The notes below the pieces were generated by a model, which saw nothing but the letters and a program-made list of their open reading frames with translations, was not told where the DNA came from and did no database searches. Of a DNA stretch of 64,000 nucleotides, positions 227 to 50,978 are shown piece by piece. The position numbers were made by a program, and so were the translations under genes. The DNA is from a virus. How positions within the stretch are numbered: position 1 is the stretch's first letter; each line of letters starts with the position of its first letter. Where the stretch lies: positions 51,493 to 115,492 of IMG/VR virus record IMGVR_UViG_3300035670_000055. One strand, 5' to 3'.

Positions 227-942
227 TACCAAATATGTGCTACATTACTAAAACATTCTTGATACCCATTAAATTTAATTAAAGGTTTATACTTTTTATC
301 TTTATTCATCTTTTTTAGTTTATTTTCTAGATTATATATTTTATTACAACTATCTTCTATAATTTTTATTATAGAATAATTATAAGGCATTTCTTTTTTA
401 GATTTAAATCTTTTTTCTATTGTTTGAAAAGTTCTTCCAATTTTATAAAATTCTTCAAAATCATTCCAACATTTTATAATATATATTTTATATGTATGAA
501 AATTTTTTGATTCTTTAGCAGACTTTTCCCAGTTTTTTTCAGACCACCCTGTTGGATTATTAGAATGTAAAATAGAACTTTTTATATTTTTACATTTGGG
601 ACATCCTTTTTTATTTAAATGATCATTTGCTTCTTGTAAAAAATTACCATGAATTTTACAAGTTATTGTTATTTTATTATGTGCTGTTGTATAGTTAATA
701 AAATCATAAGTATACTTAAAATTATGTATTAAATTAGCTTTATTAGAATAATATTCATTTTTATTTAGAGCAGTATTTATAGAAGGTATTACACCATTCA
801 TTAAATGTCCTTTTCTTATTTTACATAATCCTAAAGAAGTTTCAACTATAACATATAAATTATTAATTCCTACCTCTTCTAAAATAATAATAGAAGAGGT
901 AGGGAATTTATTTTTATATTTTGTTATAAAAGAATCTAACAT
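226..942 (-). CDS. Putative homing endonuclease (CxxHG...GCPKC zinc-ribbon plus GIY-YIG-like C-terminal domain)
   Basis: ITCKIHGNFLQEANDHLNKKGCPKC and IYIIKC...FYKIGRT...RF...GYQECF. Likely start is MLDSF at 942 (track gives 957). Confidence 0.7.
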   Translation of the reverse strand: MLDSFITKYKNKFPTSSIIILEEVGINNLYVIVETSLGLCKIRKGHLMNGVIPSINTALNKNEYYSNKANLIHNFKYTYDFINYTTAHNKITITCKIHGNFLQEANDHLNKKGCPKCKNIKSSILHSNNPTGWSEKNWEKSAKESKNFHTYKIYIIKCWNDFEEFYKIGRTFQTIEKRFKSKKEMPYNYSIIKIIEDSCNKIYNLENKLKKMNKDKKYKPLIKFNGYQECFSNVAHIW

Positions 943-36852: not shown

Positions 36853-37179
36853 TTATCTATTTATAATAATCATTCCGTATTTTGGATGATATTGAATAGC
36901 ACATTTATATTCATTAGCCAACTGATAAAATTTCTCAAGAAATTCTTTATGATTTTGATTAGTTATGTTATTATTTAATTCAATTTTTTGTCCTTCTAAA
37001 CTTGCTTTTCGTAAGTCTATTTCAATTCCATGCTTTATCCCTCTATCCCAAGTTTCTCTCATCTCTTGTTTAGAATACTTATTGTTTCCAAATAATAAAT
37101 TTAATGTACTATCTTTTTCTTGAAAAGATGTATCATCTTTCATTTCTTCTTTAAAAATATGTTCAACTCTTAAATTCAT
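36853..37179 (-). CDS. Hypothetical protein
   Basis: ORF track. Confidence 0.6.
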   Translation of the reverse strand: MNLRVEHIFKEEMKDDTSFQEKDSTLNLLFGNNKYSKQEMRETWDRGIKHGIEIDLRKASLEGQKIELNNNITNQNHKEFLEKFYQLANEYKCAIQYHPKYGMIIINR

Positions 37180-37381
37180 TTTTGATTTTATTTAATATAA
37201 TTTGTTTTGCTTTTTTGTATTCTTCTGTATTTTCTTTAACTTCCATTACAACATCTTTTGGTGTGGTGAAATCCATTTCTATATCAGGATATTCTAACAG
37301 TCCTAATATATAATCATTCTCTAATTCTTCTAATACCAAATATACATTTGGATCTTCATCTTTAAAATATACAAGTTTCAT
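37163..37381 (-). CDS. Hypothetical protein
   Basis: ORF track. Confidence 0.55.
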   Translation of the reverse strand: MKLVYFKDEDPNVYLVLEELENDYILGLLEYPDIEMDFTTPKDVVMEVKENTEEYKKAKQIILNKIKNEFKS

Positions 37382-37595
37382 AATTTTTATTGCTTATTGC
37401 GATATGCTATATTTTGCATTTAAAAAACGTAATGCTTTTTATTTAATCTTGTAAATCAATAATAACCATCTTATAAACACTGATTTTAGCAATCAAAGGT
37501 AATGCTTGTTGTGCTGTCATTGTTTTAATTTTATTTTCCATATTACTGATGTAACGCTTATATTTTTCAATTAATTCATTATTGTTTTTCATAAT

Positions 37596-38081
37596 TTATT
37601 TCTTTACAAAAATTAAAGGATTACGGAATGTTTTTTCTTCGGCTTCTTGCCATACTTTTTTTATCCCATTTGACTTAAAAGTATCACCCACACTTTCATA
37701 ACTTATTACTCTTTCAAGAGATATAGGGTTTTCCAACCAATAAAACCCTTTTGATTCAATAGCTGATTTGAATGATTTTAAGGCTTCATATAAAACTTCA
37801 TCATCGTATTTAGCCCTATAATCTCTATACATTATACTCTCTTCTAAATTTGAATAGGATTCTTCTACCAACTCACTTGCAATTTCTTCTGTGAGTTCTG
37901 AGCCTTTGCAGATAACCTCAAATTTGTCTAAAGTTGAAGCGTTAAGTTTAATTTCTTCATTTCCTATTTTTAGATACTTGCATTCTTTATTGATAAATTC
38001 ATAATCTGCTAATCTTGGAATTTTAACAATAAGCACGTCTTTTTTTAATTTTAGTTCTAATATTTTCATATTTTTATCCAC
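37596..38081 (-). CDS. Hypothetical protein
   Basis: ORF track; ICKGSELTEEIA..WQEAEEKTF recurrent family. Confidence 0.6.
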   Translation of the reverse strand: MDKNMKILELKLKKDVLIVKIPRLADYEFINKECKYLKIGNEEIKLNASTLDKFEVICKGSELTEEIASELVEESYSNLEESIMYRDYRAKYDDEVLYEALKSFKSAIESKGFYWLENPISLERVISYESVGDTFKSNGIKKVWQEAEEKTFRNPLIFVKK

Positions 38082-38084
38082 TTT

Positions 38085-38327
38085 CTACAAGTGGGAAGTT
38101 TTAAGGTTAAAAAGGACAATATTTTTTTTAGGTATTTTCTCTAATTTAGATTTTAGGCTTTTTAATGAGTGAAATTTACCTTTTATGTTATATCCAATGC
38201 TTCCATTATTATAAACTTGTTTTATTTCACGATTTGTTTTAGAGTTAAAACATTTATCATCAGAAAACACATAATTTTTAGCAAAATTTAATCTATATTT
38301 ACATAGATACTTTACTGTTATAATCAT
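38085..38327 (-). CDS. Small basic protein bordering the cassette array
   Basis: CFNSKTNREIKQVYNNGSIGYNIKGKF; too short for a tyrosine recombinase. Confidence 0.55.
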   Translation of the reverse strand: MIITVKYLCKYRLNFAKNYVFSDDKCFNSKTNREIKQVYNNGSIGYNIKGKFHSLKSLKSKLEKIPKKNIVLFNLKTSHL

Positions 38328-38340
38328 TGTTTTAGCCTTT

Positions 38341-38374
38341 GTGTTGTTTCGTCTATATTTGTGTTGGCAGCAAG
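38341..38374 (+). repeat. attI-like simple site / start of cassette 1
   Basis: GTTGGCAGCAAG (38363-38374) is complementary (11/12) to CCTGCTGCCAAC (38569-38580); no palindromic left arm seen. Confidence 0.45.
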
Positions 38375-38375
38375 T

Positions 38376-38639
38376 TTATTGAACCCACCACTCAACGACT
38401 TTACCAGTAACTCGGTCAACAATACAAGCCTTTGCAACTGTATCATCAACCAATGCTTTATATTCTTGTGCTTCTTTCAATGTTTTGACAGGTTCGGCAA
38501 TGTTTTCAACTTTCTTAAATCCGACTTCTGCAAAGCCTTTAAAAGAAATATTTACGACATAACGAAAACCTGCTGCCAACACCTGCTTTACAATAGCAGG
38601 GCTGACATCTACATTTTGAGCATTTGTAATTCTATTCAT
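38376..38639 (-). CDS. Cassette 1 protein; N-terminus encoded inside the attC-like site
   Basis: MNRITNAQNVDVSPAIVKQVLAAG is read from the bottom strand of the 38574-38705 hairpin. Confidence 0.6.
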   Translation of the reverse strand: MNRITNAQNVDVSPAIVKQVLAAGFRYVVNISFKGFAEVGFKKVENIAEPVKTLKEAQEYKALVDDTVAKACIVDRVTGKVVEWWVQ

Positions 38640-38705
38640 CTTCTGTACTTATTTGAAAGTTAGTAATTCTAATCCCTGCCATCGTAAAGCATTATACCGT
38701 TGTAG
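38574..38705 (+). repeat. attC-like site 1 (132 bp)
   Basis: TGCCAAC..GCTTTACAATAGCAGGG...CCCTGCCATCGTAAAGC..GTTGTAG; arms match 15/17. Confidence 0.75.
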
Positions 38706-38711
38706 GAAATG

Positions 38712-39038
38712 CTACAACTCTACAGCATAGCGTTCTTTTTCTTTTTTATAAAGATTTTTAAAGCTACCATTGGAAATAACTTTATTAAAACTATCCTTTT
38801 TTAATAAAATTTCAGCATTTAATAAAGCGTTTCCTGCCATTCTTTTAATCTCAAAAACACCACCACTTAAACTTAATTTTATTGATTTTTTTTGATTATT
38901 ATTTTCTCCATTTCCAATAAATGCAGTCCACATTGTAATTCCATTTTCTCGATGTTCAACAGTTATAAAATCTGCACTTTCAATATTAGCAGACATTGGA
39001 GCATCTATTATTTTTAAAACTTTATAATTTATTTTCAT
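38712..39038 (-). CDS. Cassette 2 hypothetical protein
   Basis: Bounded by GTTGTAGGAAATGC (38699-38712) and GCACTTCCTACAAC (39080-39093), 13/14 complementary. Confidence 0.65.
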   Translation of the reverse strand: MKINYKVLKIIDAPMSANIESADFITVEHRENGITMWTAFIGNGENNNQKKSIKLSLSGGVFEIKRMAGNALLNAEILLKKDSFNKVISNGSFKNLYKKEKERYAVEL

Positions 39039-39086
39039 TTTTATAATTTTTAGTTGTTAATATTTTTGTTTCCTTTCCCGCACTTC

Positions 39087-39166
39087 CTACAACACTATAT
39101 TTGCAAAAACGGCTCTGAAAAAACTTTGTGGATATCGCCGTATTCGCAAATACAAAACCGTTATCT
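39087..39166 (+). repeat. attC-like site 2 (80 bp)
   Basis: CTACAAC..TATTTGCAAAAACGGC...GCCGTATTCGCAAATA..GTTATCT; arms match 14/16. Confidence 0.75.
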
Positions 39167-39203
39167 GTAATAGAGCCAAAGCTTTATTTTTTACTACTAT
39201 TCG

Positions 39204-39527
39204 TTAATAAAGATTATGTTTTTTAAGTATCTTTTTTAACTTTTCGTTTTCTTCATATAGCACATTAAATCTTGTCATTGCACTATCCAAAATTTTTAGT
39301 AAAGCATAATTATCTATTAAGATTGGTTTATTTGCTAAACCTCTATATTTTACCATATTCAAAATATTTATTGAATTTTTAAATTCTTTTGTTTCGCTTT
39401 CATTTCCTACGATAACATAACAATCATTTTTTTCTGAAATCTCTTTTATTAATGTTGAAGTTCCAGAACTTCTGTGTCTAATCATAAAATCATAAACACT
39501 CTTAATTATTTCTTCGTTTTTTGACAT
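39204..39527 (-). CDS. Cassette 3 protein, degenerate mini P-loop-like
   Basis: HRSSGTST (Walker A-like, no Lys) and PILIDN (Walker B-like) in 107 aa. Confidence 0.55.
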   Translation of the reverse strand: MSKNEEIIKSVYDFMIRHRSSGTSTLIKEISEKNDCYVIVGNESETKEFKNSINILNMVKYRGLANKPILIDNYALLKILDSAMTRFNVLYEENEKLKKILKKHNLY

Positions 39528-39597
39528 TATTATATTTTTTATTAATTATTTAAAGTTCGCTTTCAGCTCTCATTTGCCATTGCTAAAAAACTTCTTC

Positions 39598-39678
39598 GCA
39601 TAACATCGGTTTGGTTCTATGGCGTGGAAAACACCTTGCGCATACACGCCACAGAAACCAAGCCTTTTAACGTTAAAA
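39598..39678 (+). repeat. attC-like site 3 (81 bp)
   Basis: GCATAAC..GGTTTGGTTCTATGGCGTG...CACGCCACAGAAACCAAGCC..GTTAAAA; one bulged base. Confidence 0.75.
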
Positions 39679-39915
39679 ACGTTCATCGTCATCTTTTAAT
39701 TTATTTGTTGAAAAGACTACTCTCAAAATAGCCGTAATTAATAAAAAAGGTAAAATAAAAGAAATTGATGCTGTTGGTGAATTGTTACAGCAACCGTCAC
39801 CATCCCAATGCCCGTTTCCTCCGTGTGCAATTGAAATTAAATGCCCTGGAGGACAATTATTTGGATGTTGTTTTGGAGGTCTTGGTATTTCTGAATTTAT
39901 AAATATATCACTCAT
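39673..39915 (-). CDS. Cassette 4 small Pro/Cys/His-rich membrane protein
   Basis: CPPGH..GCC then hydrophobic ISFILPFLLITAIL; TAA stop lies within the GTTAAAA core. Confidence 0.55.
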   Translation of the reverse strand: MSDIFINSEIPRPPKQHPNNCPPGHLISIAHGGNGHWDGDGCCNNSPTASISFILPFLLITAILRVVFSTNKLKDDDERF

Positions 39916-39943
39916 TGTTTTTAATTTTTTTATTTGTTATTAG

Positions 39944-40081
39944 TTCCTGTGACAGGATTCGAACCTGTATGTTATCTTCAACTTTTTTGTTGTCTAATAG
40001 TTTGACAATCTGATTTGTATAAGACTTGCAAATCTAATACTCATTTGATAACCATGTGTCTACCAATTCCACCACACAGGA
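39944..40081 (-). ncRNA. tRNA-like RNA (Leu-type body) with anticodon arm replaced by a multi-hairpin insert
   Basis: Acceptor TCCTGTG/CACAGGA, D-arm GTGGAATTGGTAGACAC, T-arm ACAGG-TTCGAAT-CCTGT; about 90 nt central insert closed by GTTATC/GATAAC. Confidence 0.7.
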
Positions 40082-40089
40082 AAATAAAA

Positions 40090-40118
40090 AAGGCTGTTTA
40101 AATTAATAAACAGCTTTT
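40090..40118 (-). terminator. Terminator-like hairpin upstream of the tRNA-like RNA
   Basis: GCTGTTTA-loop-TAAACAGC with flanking A/T tracts. Confidence 0.5.
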
Positions 40119-40131
40119 ATAAATTTTAAAA

Positions 40132-40569
40132 TTATAATAATTGCTGTTTTTTATAAGCAATCATTTCTAATTTTTCTTCATACAATTCAATTTGTTTTTT
40201 TGTATGATACTTTTGAGCTTGAATTTCTTCTTCTTTTTGTTTTCTAGCTCTAATTCCTTTATTAAATTGTTCATCTAATTGAAAAACATAAGATTCTCTT
40301 AGTTCTACTGTAGCAATTTTATCTACATTAATTTCAATAAAAGCTTGTTCTTCTTGTTCTTTAATTTCTTCAAGTTTTTCTTTTGAAATTTCCAGATAAT
40401 CTTCTAGATCTCTTTTTAATTTTTCAATTTGTGCATTACATTTTCTTTCTTCATCTTTATAATATCTTTCCATACGTTTTTTCATTGAAGAAACTTTTGC
40501 TTCTTCTGTAACGTTTAAAAATGATAATACTCTTTCTACCCATGACTCTTTTTTAGCTTGTGTGCTCAT
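40132..40569 (-). CDS. Coiled-coil hypothetical protein
   Basis: E/K/Q-rich helical sequence. Confidence 0.7.
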   Translation of the reverse strand: MSTQAKKESWVERVLSFLNVTEEAKVSSMKKRMERYYKDEERKCNAQIEKLKRDLEDYLEISKEKLEEIKEQEEQAFIEINVDKIATVELRESYVFQLDEQFNKGIRARKQKEEEIQAQKYHTKKQIELYEEKLEMIAYKKQQLL

Positions 40570-40618
40570 AATAAATAAATGTTTAATAATTAATAATTTT
40601 TTAAATTTTTTTTGTTTG

Positions 40619-42571
40619 TTATTCTATATCTGGAGTTGGTCCATATATATCAAATTCTTTTTCTACAAATATAGAAACATTTTTCCAATAATCAGAAAAT
40701 GTTGATGGATATTGTCCTACTTCATCATGAATATATATATTTCCAAGCCTTTCTTCATAAGGATCATATCCCATTATATATCTTGAAGATACCTTTTCAG
40801 GAATTCCTAACCAAGTTTTCTGTTGTTCATAAGCTTCTTTTGTGGAAGGTTTCCATCTATACTTTATTAAATTTACATAAAGATTATCATATTCGTTAAA
40901 ATTAACTAAATCATTACAATTTAATACTGCAAAAGTTAAATCATTAGAATTTTTAACTTTATATATTTTTCCTTGAATAAAATAATCAGAAAAAGAATCA
41001 ATTGCTTCTATATATTCAGGAACTTCTGTAATACTTTCTTCTGGTAAAGAAATTAATTCTGCCCATTTTCCATTTTGAAATAAGAATCCTCCTCTTATGT
41101 GTGCCCAAATACTGTTTCCAAAAATTCTATAAGTATCAGAACCATCTTTTAAGACATATGTCATTCCATTAATAGAAATATATGTACAACCAATAGGAAA
41201 TCTTTTCTTACATTCTTCTTGAATTTCTTCCATAGATAATTCTTTTTTCTGTAATTCTGTTACGTCATAAGGTTTACCTCTTCTTTCATACTCGTCTATT
41301 TCTTCTTGTGTAGCATATTTCCAGTTTGGATATTCTGGTTTATATTTTACCCAACCATTAGTTATGGAATCTAAAGAATCATATTCAGGTTGTAAATAAG
41401 TTGAATCTTTTCTTTGTTTATAAATATGATTAGATACGAAGTCTTTACTATAACTATCAAATTTATCTGTAATAACAATATATTCTCCTTTTTTAAATTC
41501 ATTAGATTGTATTTTATCTGGATTATTGCTAAACCCTGTTCCATTACAATCTGGACAAGTATCTATTACTTCTGTATGTCCAGAAGGATATAATTTAGCT
41601 ATCATAGTTTCTCCTTCACCATTACAAGTTTCACAAAATTTATCTGGATGATCCAGAGGAAGAAATTCTTGTACTTCTTCTGCAGATATTTCTTGTATTT
41701 GTTCAACTTTTGATTTATCAAAAGTTCCTGAATAATTATAATCAGTACAGCCAAGTATCCAAGGAGACATAACAAGAGTATCTGTATATATATCTATACC
41801 ATTAACTTTACCATAATGATAACTTCCATGATTTTTTTGATACCATTTATACCATTTTCCAAATTCAAATTTCTGATTAATAATTTTATCAGAATGTCCA
41901 TCAGGTAAGTATTCTTGAATTTCTGATAAATCTTCTACTAACTTAATTCTTGTTAAATCTCCACTTGAACCAGTTTCACATCTATAACCACTATTTCCAA
42001 TTAATTCTGAATAAGATAATTTATTTTCTACAGGAATTTTGGAACATTTTCTATAGGCATTTTCACAATTAATTAGTTTATACCATTTACCAGGAATAAA
42101 TTCTATATTAGGCTCTTTAACCTCTTGTTCTGGAGAATAATCTTCTGGTAATAATTCGTATCTTATTCCTAAAGTTCCTTCTGATAAAGCGTTGCTACAA
42201 GAGTAGTTTTTAGAATTTGGAAAATCTACTTTACTTGAAGAAAATATTTTACCAACATCTCCTTTTTTTACTCCACTTCCTAAATGAGGATTGTCTACTA
42301 AAGCTCTAATATATCTACCAATATGTTGTGATAAATCATCAAAATATTCTTGTTGTTTTTTTATTACATAATCTGTATTTAGAAACAGCCAACCATCATA
42401 TTTAAATTCTTCATTTTTATCACAATATACAGTGTATTCATCAGGAACATCTATCCCTAAATAGTTATTCATTTCTCCATCAGAATTCCACTTATCTGGA
42501 CAATTATATTCTTCATCCCATAATCCATCTCGAATAAATTCTTTTTTTGTTTTAAATCTGTATTTACTCAT
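40619..42571 (-). CDS. Large mosaic protein of repeated small modules
   Basis: Recurrent (F)xxGKWYK starts and QE(Y/F)LPxxHxDK linkers; internal CETCNGEG..CPDCNGTG zinc finger. Confidence 0.7.
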   Translation of the reverse strand: MSKYRFKTKKEFIRDGLWDEEYNCPDKWNSDGEMNNYLGIDVPDEYTVYCDKNEEFKYDGWLFLNTDYVIKKQQEYFDDLSQHIGRYIRALVDNPHLGSGVKKGDVGKIFSSSKVDFPNSKNYSCSNALSEGTLGIRYELLPEDYSPEQEVKEPNIEFIPGKWYKLINCENAYRKCSKIPVENKLSYSELIGNSGYRCETGSSGDLTRIKLVEDLSEIQEYLPDGHSDKIINQKFEFGKWYKWYQKNHGSYHYGKVNGIDIYTDTLVMSPWILGCTDYNYSGTFDKSKVEQIQEISAEEVQEFLPLDHPDKFCETCNGEGETMIAKLYPSGHTEVIDTCPDCNGTGFSNNPDKIQSNEFKKGEYIVITDKFDSYSKDFVSNHIYKQRKDSTYLQPEYDSLDSITNGWVKYKPEYPNWKYATQEEIDEYERRGKPYDVTELQKKELSMEEIQEECKKRFPIGCTYISINGMTYVLKDGSDTYRIFGNSIWAHIRGGFLFQNGKWAELISLPEESITEVPEYIEAIDSFSDYFIQGKIYKVKNSNDLTFAVLNCNDLVNFNEYDNLYVNLIKYRWKPSTKEAYEQQKTWLGIPEKVSSRYIMGYDPYEERLGNIYIHDEVGQYPSTFSDYWKNVSIFVEKEFDIYGPTPDIE

Positions 42572-50000: not shown

Positions 50001-50516
50001 TTACAATGCGATTAGTTGAGACCAATCAACTTCACGTGCTAATTGTACAGGAGTTTTAATCATTTCCTCTGTAACAGTCACTTCGCTGAATGACATGTCA
50101 ACACCTCCAGCATTAGAGATTGAATAGACAATTATTTGTACTTCTTCTCCAGTTTCTTCATCGATTTTCATAATTGGATTTCCGTCTTTATCATATTGAG
50201 GAAGTTCAAGAATTGGTAAAGAACCAACAGTATTCCATAACTTTTGGAATTCTTCTACAGATTGTTTTTTAGCTTCACGCAACTGACTACTAAATTTATC
50301 AGAACAGTTAACGTTTACAACTTGTCCTTTAGCATTATGCAAGGCAACAGTGATACGTGTTCTACGTTCTACACCCTCTCTGTTCTTAACAAGTTTACCT
50401 GTAAAGTTCTCAGGAGTAGTAAGTTTAAATGTTCCGCCAATTCCTACAAATTCACTAACAGTACCGATTGATTTTAATGAGCTCTGTCTTGGAGCTACGT
50501 CTTTAAATTGTAACAT
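50001..50516 (-). CDS. Hypothetical protein; first gene of the leftward unit
   Basis: ORF track; isolated between two long non-coding regions. Confidence 0.7.
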   Translation of the reverse strand: MLQFKDVAPRQSSLKSIGTVSEFVGIGGTFKLTTPENFTGKLVKNREGVERRTRITVALHNAKGQVVNVNCSDKFSSQLREAKKQSVEEFQKLWNTVGSLPILELPQYDKDGNPIMKIDEETGEEVQIIVYSISNAGGVDMSFSEVTVTEEMIKTPVQLAREVDWSQLIAL

Positions 50517-50978
50517 AATTTTATAATTTTTAAAAGGTTAATTTGTAAAAAGGGTTTTGGGATGGAGAATGTCCCTGATAATGATATGAGAGTGTAGTTT
50601 TACCTTGTTGAATTGGCTAACACACTCTCAATATCCATATCGTTTGAAGGGGGAGTAACCCCAATCTCTCAAATTGTACAGGGGGTCTTGGGTAGGAGTG
50701 GTATAACTCCCCTTTCACATAAACAATTTTCAAAAAAAAAATAATTCTCATACGAAAATATTTTTAAATAAAAAAATTTAAAAAATTTTTCCATGTGAAA
50801 AAAATGTATTAATTTTGGCAGGGTGGGTGGGTTAGAATAGAAGAGTTAGTTATTACTAACTAATAGATATTCCAGATAAGCAAACTAAATAAGGGAAGTA
50901 TATAAATAAAACATTGATATATAATTAAATAAAAAATAAAAATAGTTGTAATTAAAATATTTTTATTAACTTTGTCAT
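50517..50978. promoter_or_regulatory. Divergent control region with G-runs and hairpins; possible genome terminus / packaging site
   Basis: Strand switch; GGGGG runs near 50649 and 50681, GGGTGGGTGGG at 50821; TAACTTTG -7 element at 50967-50974. Confidence 0.5.

What the first reader, a model, noticed from the sequence alone, without database searches (positions are those of the whole stretch)
38376..38705. Cassette ORFs are inverted and the attC-like site itself encodes a protein N-terminus
Seen: the attC body matching each cassette's GTT start lies on the plus strand to the right, so it is upstream of the minus-strand ORF, opposite to canonical integrons. The cassette 1 ORF starts at 38639 inside the hairpin (MNRITNAQNVDVSPAIVKQVLAAG). 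Stops of cassettes 2 and 4 fall at or in the GTT-side repeat. Inference: inversion aligns the genes with the phage's leftward transcription, and the recombination site doubles as a translation-initiation module.
Basis: partly seen in the sequence, partly recalled or inferred. Interest (0 to 1): 0.7.

Follow-up and report, generated by a model that had tools for sequence, protein, structure and literature searches.

The report
Back-to-front integron cassettes in a phage
A large phage carries three genuine integron-type mobile gene cassettes whose genes read backwards relative to bacterial integrons. In the first cassette the folded recombination site itself holds the start codon and encodes the first 22 amino acids of the protein.

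Summary
Window 38363-39678 holds three integron-type cassettes (38364-38699, 38700-39160, 39161-39672) in a 115-kb tailed phage that has no tyrosine, serine or HUH recombinase. Cassette 1 is a proven mobile unit. The same block, starting at G|TT 38363 and ending 38691-38701, occurs in at least 8 unrelated contexts of 29-56% GC, at 100% identity in two of them.

The crossover points and the strand asymmetry of the hairpins make + the attC top strand. All three conserved ORFs lie on the bottom strand, so each attC sits 5' of its gene.

ORF1 (87 aa) starts at ATG 38639 in the 72-nt attC loop. Its codons 1-22 are attC DNA. This leader is kept open but its residues are not conserved, and the conserved protein starts where the attC ends.

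The same loop module (TTAGAATTAC, 32-33 nt, ATG) heads unrelated cassette genes in other phage arrays, including a cytosine methylase. Cassettes 2 and 3 start outside their attC.

"Inversion" is the wrong word, because the orientation is built into each cassette. "Cassette 4" has no attC.

Phage attC clusters are published (Qi 2023). This scan has noted reversed phage arrays on other DNA before. No translation start has been shown experimentally.

The parts
38085..38327 (-). Conserved small gene (80 aa) next to the array's left junction. It reads away from the array.
   Evidence: Relatives lie in 13 viral contigs, and an RYYYAAC core sits 25-35 nt upstream of each ATG. About 100 clusters of 70-80 aa exist at the 50% level. 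The AF2 model (pLDDT 73) resembles the N-terminal DNA-binding domain of I-HmuI: Z 5.2, rmsd 2.4 A over 56 residues, next best Z 2.9.
38328..38369 (+). attI-like junction: a 35-nt spacer without a hairpin, then the core G|TTGGCA (38363-69). The crossover lies between 38363 and 38364.
   Evidence: Homology of cassette 1 to other contexts starts at 38363. In related phages, identical backbones diverge exactly at the equivalent AAC|. An X6 contig matches 38238-38365 and then diverges.
38364..38699 (+). Cassette 1 (336 nt), a mobile unit.
   Evidence: It is 95% identical over 38363-38699 in a Flavobacterium caeni 39.7-kb phage-like contig. It is 100% identical over 38363-38701 in two contigs of 54-56% GC, and 92-98% identical in others. 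The flanks are unrelated in every case.
38376..38639 (-). ORF1, 87 aa. Codons 1-22 are attC DNA and the conserved core begins at about residue 21-24.
   Evidence: There are 54 homologue clusters, most of exactly 87 aa. In the core, synonymous codon changes outnumber non-synonymous ones 8-11 to 1-2 in close homologues. The frame is open in 5 diverged leader lineages, whereas the other frames have 0-4 stops. Residues 1-12 are disordered in the AF2 model.
38574..38705 (+). attC site 1 (132 nt). R'' 38574-80, L'' 38586-601, variable loop 38602-73, L' 38674-89, R' 38699-705. The + strand is the top strand.
   Evidence: DNA fold energies are -16.2 kcal/mol for the - strand and -10.4 for the + strand. 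Arm duplex energies are -19.0 (bottom) and -15.0 (top). The same asymmetry is kept through covariation in 11 homologous sites of 5 sequence types.
38637..38672 (-). Start module in the attC loop: TTAGAATTAC, then 23 nt, then ATG. The ATG begins 33 nt after the first T of the motif.
   Evidence: It is the only copy in the phage genome. The same module, with 32-33 nt from its first base to the ATG, heads the 87-aa family (two sub-lineages), a 465-aa C5 DNA methylase in L048 and a 136-aa ORF in L050. In the RNA fold the AUG is unpaired inside a stem of -36.8 kcal/mol.
38700..39160 (+). Cassette 2. ORF2 is 38712-39038 (-, 108 aa). attC site 2 is 39087-39166.
   Evidence: The ORF2 family has 41 clusters, nearly all of 108 aa. 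Wastewater contigs and viral contig L028 begin their match at 38698-38700. Site 2 folds at -10.8 (- strand) versus -8.7 (+ strand).
39161..39672 (+). Cassette 3. ORF3 is 39204-39527 (-, 107 aa). attC site 3 is 39598-39678.
   Evidence: The ORF3 family has 6 clusters. Five X5 contigs begin their match at 39159 behind a different attC tail, and seven X6 contigs diverge after 39675. Site 3 folds equally well on both strands, -16.0 and -16.7.
39673..39915 (-). Flanking 80-aa ORF whose TAA stop is the TTA of site 3 R'. It has no attC to its right, so it is not a complete cassette.
   Evidence: No hairpin lies between 39916 and the tRNA-like gene at 39944-40081.

Best explanation
What it is. Window 38363-39678 is a three-cassette integron-type array without an integrase (CALIN-like). 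It sits in the leftward early/replication module of a 115-kb tailed phage. Each cassette is one gene plus one attC, with crossover at G|TT, exactly as in integrons. The difference is that the gene lies on the attC bottom strand, so in the direction of transcription the attC comes before its gene.

Cassette 1. The 72-nt variable loop of the attC carries a conserved module and the ATG. Translation therefore starts inside the recombination site and reads through L'', the spacer and R''. This gives a roughly 22-residue leader that is kept open but is not constrained as protein. The functional protein begins where the attC ends.

Origin of the orientation. It is a built-in property of this cassette type, which is shared with other phage arrays. 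It did not arise by inversion.

Shown here: the mobile-unit boundaries, the polarity, the coding strand, the overlap, and the recurrence of the loop module.

Inferred: use of ATG 38639, transcription from the phage side or from within the loop, and recombination by an integrase supplied in trans.
For: Boundaries and mobility. The cassette-1 block starts at 38363 in 8 or more unrelated contexts (29-56% GC). Where its right end could be seen, it ends at 38691-38701. Wastewater contigs start or stop at 38699/700, 39159-62 and 39675.

Chain rule. The first bases of each cassette are the reverse complement of its own R'': 7/7, 7/7 and 5/7. The same chains are seen in L003/4, L007, L009, L010, L012, L015, L046 and L048.

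Polarity. The bottom-strand arms are 3-5.5 kcal/mol more stable in 11 of 11 homologous attCs. A.C mismatches on + correspond to G.T on -. A 1-nt bulge lies in the L'' arm of four of them, which matches Nivina 2016 (PMC5027507).

Coding.

Leader. 16-19 of about 20 changed codons are non-synonymous, yet the frame has no stops in 5 lineages. M1 is invariant in 31 sequences.

Module recurrence. The L048 methylase Pfam match starts at residue 22, straight after the attC-coded leader.

Phage identity and recombinases. The genome encodes terminase, portal, head protein, DNA polymerase and RIIA/B. It has no PF00589, PF00239 or PF01797 match.

Assembly. An 18.2-kb Logan contig spans 37600-40400 with no differences.
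Against: No experiment shows the start codon. In-frame GTG/TTG codons at residues 20/21 could start translation just past the site, and homologues exist that begin MFRYVV or MRYVV.

Cassettes 2 and 3 do not overlap their attC.

Site 3 is symmetric in energy, and its single bulge is on the L' arm.

Site 1 has no extrahelical base.

The spacers (3-5 versus 7-9 nt) are more unequal than in textbook attCs.

No integrase was found in the phage, in the F. caeni genome or in 301 sampled Flavobacteriales genomes above the IntI cut-off.

A sigma-70-type promoter scan was no better than shuffles.

The spanning contigs come from the study that may be the window's source.
Confidence: 0.75

Rival explanations
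1. The cassettes are real and reversed, but translation of ORF1 starts at GTG/TTG (residues 20/21) or later. On this view the attC only lies in the 5' untranslated region and encodes no peptide.
For: Family members start MFRYVV, MRYVV or MTKFRYVV. Leader residues are unconserved. Residues 1-12 are disordered in the model.
Against: M1 is invariant, and most members are 85-87 aa long. There are no stops in the ORF frame in 5 diverged leader lineages, against 0-4 in the other frames. The distance from the loop motif to the ATG is fixed at 32-33 nt in unrelated cassettes, and the methylase domain starts at residue 22.
Confidence: 0.15
2. The hairpins are phage terminators or regulatory repeats, and the shared blocks reflect ordinary phage mosaicism through illegitimate or homologous recombination. 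No integron-type site-specific recombination is involved.
For: No integrase is present in the phage or nearby. In L001 the right junction is G|GA, not G|TT. L008, L016 and L028 carry the genes without an intact attC.
Against: The boundaries fall on G|TT to the base in many contexts. The cores obey the chain rule. The stems covary with a conserved strand asymmetry. GC-rich neighbours in L003/L004 are typical short attCs. No T-run follows the stems.
Confidence: 0.05
3. The array belongs to a phage-specific integron-like system with its own recombinase, unrelated or only distantly related to IntI. That recombinase has been lost from this genome or goes unrecognised in it. The reversed layout is the system's normal layout.
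For: A fixed junction beside a conserved small gene occurs in 13 viral contigs, and different first cassettes sit on identical backbones. Reversed ORFs are found in other phage arrays. The attC arms and loop module are homologous across phage arrays. Earlier notes of this scan claim Xer-like recombinases beside such arrays in other phages (unchecked here).
Against: No tyrosine recombinase was found in G000 or beside the arrays in 10 related records. Most of those records are fragments. The identical cassette also sits in GC-rich arrays with ordinary-looking attCs, which fits the general integron pool.
Confidence: 0.3
4. The array is an assembly chimera: integron cassettes from a bacterium were joined to a phage contig.
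For: Cassette 1 is GC-richer (about 37%) than the phage (about 25%). X1 contigs break at 38094-38114 and at 39060-39083.
Against: A single 18.2-kb contig in X3 spans 37600-40400 with no differences, and four samples hold the stretch. Cassettes 2 and 3 have phage-like GC content. Related phage backbones show the same junction.
Confidence: 0.03

Closest known systems
CALINs (attC clusters lacking an integron integrase) in bacteriophage genomes, Qi et al. 2023, Front Microbiol, PMC9892861
   Same: attC-bounded cassettes inside virulent phage genomes without intI, including a phage with a Bacteroidota host (Polaribacter). Methylase cargo was also noted there.
   Different: That paper does not describe genes antisense to attC polarity, a start codon inside the attC, or a fixed junction beside a conserved small gene. 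Here mobility is shown by identical units in unrelated contexts, not by an IntI1 assay.
Canonical integron gene cassettes (gene then attC; bottom strand recombined; Pc-driven), e.g. Nivina et al. 2016, PMC5027507
   Same: R''/R' cores, G|TT crossover, the chain rule, an imperfect stem with a variable loop, a better-folding bottom strand, and one gene per cassette.
   Different: The gene is on the bottom strand, so the attC is 5' of it. The loop is long (72 nt) and carries the ATG. The spacers are more unequal. Site 1 has no extrahelical base.
ORF-11/ORF-17 in attI1 and cassette-borne promoters (review PMC8876359); toxin-antitoxin cassettes with their own promoter (PMC13108822)
   Same: A recombination site that carries translation-initiation signals (attI1 ORF-11), and cassettes that do not depend on Pc.
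   Different: Here the signals and the N-terminal codons lie in the attC of the cassette itself and travel with it. ORF-11 belongs to the platform's attI.
attG insertion and isolated cassettes (SALIN), Loot et al., bioRxiv 10.1101/2022.09.11.507474
   Same: Cassettes inserted outside att sites at G|WT. The window's outer junctions would rebuild ...tttgtG|TTAAAAAC, and L001 holds a single isolated cassette.
   Different: In related phages the junction is at a fixed place beside a conserved gene and holds different first cassettes. That looks more like attI than like a random attG.

Membership tests
Integron gene cassette / attC site | Inverse core R'' (..AAC) and core R' (GTT..) flank an imperfect hairpin | tested here: met
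   Found at all three sites at 38574-38705, 39087-39166 and 39598-39678.
Integron gene cassette / attC site | Crossover at G|TT, so that the cassette is a discrete unit found in different contexts | tested here: met
   The block 38363 to 38691-38701 occurs in 8 or more unrelated contexts. Piece boundaries fall at 38699/700, 39159-62 and 39675.
Integron gene cassette / attC site | The first bases of a cassette are complementary to its own R'' (chain rule along an array) | tested here: met
   7/7, 7/7 and 5/7 in the window. The same chains are seen in L003/4, L007, L009, L010, L012, L015, L046 and L048.
Integron gene cassette / attC site | Structure is conserved while sequence varies (covariation in L''/L') | tested here: met
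   Five sequence types of the cassette-1 attC keep a 17-20 bp bottom-strand duplex, and the inner length is constant at 117-119 nt, apart from a 125-nt parsing outlier for L012.
Integron gene cassette / attC site | Strand asymmetry: extrahelical bases near L'' favour the bottom strand | tested here: inconclusive
   The bottom strand is favoured in 11 of 11 homologues through G.T versus A.C pairs. A bulge in the L'' arm is present in 4 of them. Window site 1 has no bulge, and site 3 has its bulge on L' with equal energies on both strands.
Integron gene cassette / attC site | Recombined by an integron integrase | not testable with these tools
   This needs an attC x attI conjugation assay.
Integron gene cassette / attC site | Scored as attC by the IntegronFinder / HattCI models | not tested
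   These models are not available here.
Complete integron | intI (a tyrosine recombinase with the IntI-specific domain) lies next to attI | tested here: not met
   There is no PF00589 match in the 115-kb genome, which CheckV rates 100% complete. The gene at the intI position encodes an 80-aa protein.
CALIN | Two or more attC sites close together without an integrase | tested here: met
   Three sites lie within 1.1 kb.
Canonical cassette layout | The gene is on the top strand, upstream of its attC | tested here: not met
   All three conserved ORFs are on the bottom strand. The + strand ORFs are not conserved.

The most novel reading that the evidence does not exclude
Phages of Bacteroidota-like hosts may run their own integron-like gene-swapping platform, with three features. 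First, a fixed attI-like junction lies 25-35 nt upstream of a conserved gene of about 75 aa that resembles the DNA-binding N-terminus of HNH homing endonucleases. Second, the cassettes are built attC-first. Third, an attC family carries a portable start module (start codon plus a neutral leader of about 21 residues, perhaps also a promoter) in its variable loop, so any gene fused behind R'' is expressed without the integron's Pc promoter. The recombinase would be unknown or supplied in trans.
Probability: 0.3. Interest if true: 0.8.

Novelty: new variant of a known kind. Interest (0 to 1): 0.6.

Why it matters
Integron cassettes are normally promoterless and depend on the platform's Pc promoter. 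That is why the strand selectivity of attC is thought to matter. Here the opposite layout is stable, mobile and widespread: the same cassette is found from 29% to 56% GC contexts and in several phages. In this layout the recombination site carries the start codon and an N-terminal leader.

If the loop module drives expression, these cassettes would be self-sufficient units that a phage can take up in the direction of its own transcription. The layout also bears on how cassettes arise, because here a gene appears fused in frame behind an attC. Finally, it marks a route by which small accessory genes, such as a cytosine methylase, move between phages and bacteria.

Tried and rejected
- blastn of 37000-41000 against the INPHARED phage collection gave no match.
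- Pfam and PHROGs gave nothing for the cassette proteins.
- The ESM Atlas gave nothing usable.
- Foldseek found no PDB match for the 87-aa model or the 80-aa model.
- The empty-site test through relatives failed. The 161-aa neighbour has relatives, but they are not syntenic. The 145-aa protein and the DNA polymerase gave no viral relatives.
- A 19-mer from attC site 3 hit only a coding region of unrelated phages, which is a chance match.
- Other attC-like hits of my own scan in the window (840-929, 2596-2673, 50277-50429, 50701-50837 and others) are not chain-consistent. I inspected only the two near 50.3-50.8 kb: one lies inside a gene and the other in a structured intergenic region.
- The MAFFT alignment of the attCs (A3) was not in structural register, so I used per-sequence duplex folding instead of the count of structure pairs.
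- The IntI model TIGR02249 found nothing above its cut-off in F. caeni or in 301 sampled Flavobacteriales genomes. The split matches make this a weak test.
- No PF00589 match lies beside the arrays in 10 related viral records, most of which are fragments. The one hit, in the L028 record, lies about 9 kb away.
- The sigma-70 promoter scan was no better than shuffles.
- I considered reading the cassette register on the - strand (boundaries at AA|C). I rejected it because the homology blocks include the whole attC at the right end.

Full report
**Context.** The window is part of a 115,492-nt IMG/VR virus record that CheckV rates as complete. It encodes terminase, portal, major head protein, family-A DNA polymerase, ribonucleotide reductase and RIIA/RIIB, so it is a tailed phage. 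I did not test whether it is crAss-like. GC content is about 25%. Genes in 33-44 kb read leftward. The genome has no tyrosine recombinase, serine recombinase or Y1 HUH transposase.

**The observation.** The + strand carries three imperfect inverted repeats with the attC layout.
- Site 1 runs: R'' TGCCAAC 38574-80, 5-nt spacer, L'' 38586-601, 72-nt loop, L' 38674-89, 9-nt spacer, R' G|TTGTAG 38699-705.
- Site 2 is 39087-39166.
- Site 3 is 39598-39678.
- The core GTTGGCA at 38363 is the exact reverse complement of site 1 R''.
- Site 1 R' is the exact reverse complement of site 2 R''.
- Site 2 R' and site 3 R'' agree at 5 of 7 positions. This is the chain rule of integron arrays.
- The only conserved ORFs are on the - strand: 87 aa (38376-38639), 108 aa (38712-39038) and 107 aa (39204-39527).
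- ATG 38639 lies in the loop of site 1, and codons 1-22 cover L'', the spacer and R''.
- ORF2 starts 49 nt, and ORF3 71 nt, outside their attC.

**Cassette 1 is a mobile unit.**
- A 39.7-kb phage-like contig of Flavobacterium caeni (44% GC) holds a block 95% identical to window 38363-38699. The block runs from the G of the left core to the G of site 1 R', and the flanks are unrelated.
- Eighteen metagenome loci carry relatives. In eight of them the homology starts at exactly 38363. Where the right end is present, it ends at 38691-38701.
- Two contigs of 54-56% GC are 100% identical over 38363-38701 and are preceded by a short GC-rich attC.
- Contigs from wastewater runs begin or end their matches at 38363, 38699/38700, 39159-39162 and 39675. 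This gives the same boundaries for cassettes 2 and 3.
- An 18.2-kb contig in one run spans 37600-40400 without a difference. That run may be the window's source, so it is not independent.

**Polarity.**
- The homology block contains the whole hairpin at its right end, and the crossover is at the right-hand G|TT. By definition this makes + the top strand.
- The structure gives independent support. In 11 homologous attCs of five sequence types, the - strand arms form a continuous 17-20 bp duplex that is 3-5.5 kcal/mol more stable than the + strand arms. The + strand is interrupted by A.C mismatches, which are G.T pairs on the - strand.
- Four of the 11 have a single-base bulge in the L'' arm of the - strand.
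- These are the features that Nivina et al. 2016 assign to the recombined bottom strand.
- Whole-site folds agree for sites 1 and 2 (-16.2 versus -10.4, and -10.8 versus -8.7 kcal/mol). Site 3 is symmetric.
- The attC itself is therefore canonical, and it is the genes that lie on the bottom strand.

**Are the genes real, and does ORF1 start in the site?**
- ORF1 has 54 homologue clusters, most of exactly 87 aa. ORF2 has 41, nearly all of 108 aa. ORF3 has 6.
- In codons 23-87 of ORF1, close homologues differ by 8-11 synonymous and 1-2 non-synonymous codons.
- In codons 1-22, diverged homologues differ at 16-19 of about 20 changed codons non-synonymously, spread evenly over the three codon positions. 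This stretch therefore evolves as DNA structure, not as protein.
- Even so, the ORF frame has no stop between the ATG and the core in five diverged leader lineages, whereas the other two frames have 0-4 stops. M1 is invariant in 31 sequences.
- Some family members start directly at MFRYVV or MRYVV, and some copies have lost the attC (L008, L016). The leader is therefore dispensable.
- The AF2 model (pLDDT 68) has residues 1-12 disordered. No fold match was found, and the function is unknown.
- In the sense RNA the attC forms a stem of -36.8 kcal/mol (z = -3.5), with the AUG in an unpaired part of the loop.

**The arrangement recurs.** The loop motif TTAGAATTAC, followed after 32-33 nt by ATG, heads four different genes or sub-lineages:
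- the 87-aa family of the window type;
- the 87-aa family of the L014 type;
- a 465-aa C5 cytosine methylase in viral contig L048;
- a 136-aa ORF in L050.

The methylase Pfam match starts at residue 22 (profile position 2), immediately after the attC-coded leader. These attCs also share arm sequences with each other and with window site 3. Other cassettes of the same arrays start beyond R'' (window cassettes 2 and 3, and the first cassette of L046).

**Orientation is a property of the cassette, not an inversion.** The gene/attC arrangement of cassette 1 is the same in every context. Neighbouring cassettes in L004, L007, L009 and L012 also have their longest ORFs on the bottom strand, while L015 has a top-strand one. 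The arrays in L046, L048 and L050 show the same pattern. In the phage the genes therefore run with the neighbouring phage genes. How they are transcribed is not known. A terminator-like hairpin lies at 40093-40114, and a sigma-70-type scan gave nothing above chance.

**The left end of the array.**
- The 80-aa gene at 38085-38327 has relatives in 13 viral contigs. In each of the loci whose upstream sequence could be read, an RYYYAAC core lies 25-35 nt upstream of the ATG.
- L048, L049 and L050 are identical through the gene and the 25 nt upstream of it, then diverge completely at AAC|. L044 and L045 behave the same way. This is the behaviour of an attI-type site holding different first cassettes.
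- The family has about 100 clusters at the 50% level, nearly all of 70-80 aa.
- Its model resembles the N-terminal DNA-binding domain of the HNH endonuclease I-HmuI, at Z 5.2 against 2.9 for the next hit. This is a lead only.
- No recombinase gene was found beside these arrays, but most of the records are fragments.

**Comparison with what is known.**
- attC clusters without an integrase are published for virulent phages, including a phage of a Bacteroidota host, with methylase cargo (Qi et al. 2023).
- Insertion of cassettes outside att sites at G|WT is also published (Loot et al.).
- So are translation signals inside attI1 and cassettes with their own promoters.
- I found no description of an attC-first layout with the start codon and leader inside the attC. 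The library is incomplete, so this is not proof of novelty.
- Earlier notes of this scan report reversed cassette arrays in other phage genomes. This window is therefore a further case, not the first in the scan.

**Verdict.**
- Novelty: a new variant of a known kind.
- The main open points are the real translation start, the promoter and the recombinase.

Noticed in passing
window 38085-38369; loci L040-L052: A conserved gene of about 75 aa sits next to a fixed RYYYAAC junction in 13 viral contigs. Identical backbones (L048/L049/L050 and L044/L045) diverge exactly at AAC|. An ATAACAC-like motif lies 15-20 nt upstream of the ATG. The protein model resembles the N-terminal DNA-binding domain of I-HmuI (Z 5.2).
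   Followed up: partly
window 38078-38098: The hairpin motif CCACTTTCTACAAGTGGGAAG lies just upstream of the 161-aa gene. It occurs once in the window and twice in viral contig L028, each time directly upstream of a gene start. Several other contigs of the source samples share it, and summed depth in wastewater runs is very high over 37882-38163. It may be a shared phage regulatory element or a recombination hotspot.
   Followed up: partly
window 38699-38718: A perfect 7-bp mini-hairpin, GTTGTAG-gaaatg-CTACAAC, is formed by site 1 R' and the last codons and stop of ORF2. It is conserved in L028. Similar GTTRRRY-loop-RYYYAAC hairpins sit at the junction in L049 and L051/L052.
   Followed up: partly
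window 39944-40081 (-): This is a tRNA match (Rfam, 36.4 bits) with an insert of about 67 nt in the anticodon region. ARAGORN does not call it. One wastewater contig matches both ends but skips 39970-40064.
   Followed up: no
L001 5908-6277 (F. caeni contig NZ_FMVF01000019.1): A single isolated copy of cassette 1 lies in a 44%-GC phage-like contig. Its right junction is G|GA, not G|TT. The ORF is open upstream to an ATG 33 nt outside the cassette (118 aa). The window has TAA where L001 has CAA, 12 nt upstream of the ATG.
   Followed up: partly
L008, L016, L028: These copies of the cassette genes have kept the G|TT end next to the stop codon (seen in L008 and L028) but have lost or replaced the attC half. 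Their starts are new (L008 MMKFEN..., L016 MENQKDSF...). They look like fixed, no longer mobile cassettes.
   Followed up: partly
window 38129 / 39574 (read laying joint): A 14.5-kb contig in the source samples matches 38086-38129 and 39574-39605, with 553 other letters in between. It is another phage sharing both flanks but with different content.
   Followed up: no
window 50530-50850: A GC-rich, apparently structured intergenic stretch lies between the leftward and rightward gene modules. It is not an attC and may be an RNA or an origin region.
   Followed up: no
window 39574-39667: The region of attC site 3 has a summed contig depth of 2000-2800 in two wastewater runs, against 10-300 for most neighbouring bins. 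This points to a very abundant family of similar attC sites in that habitat.
   Followed up: no
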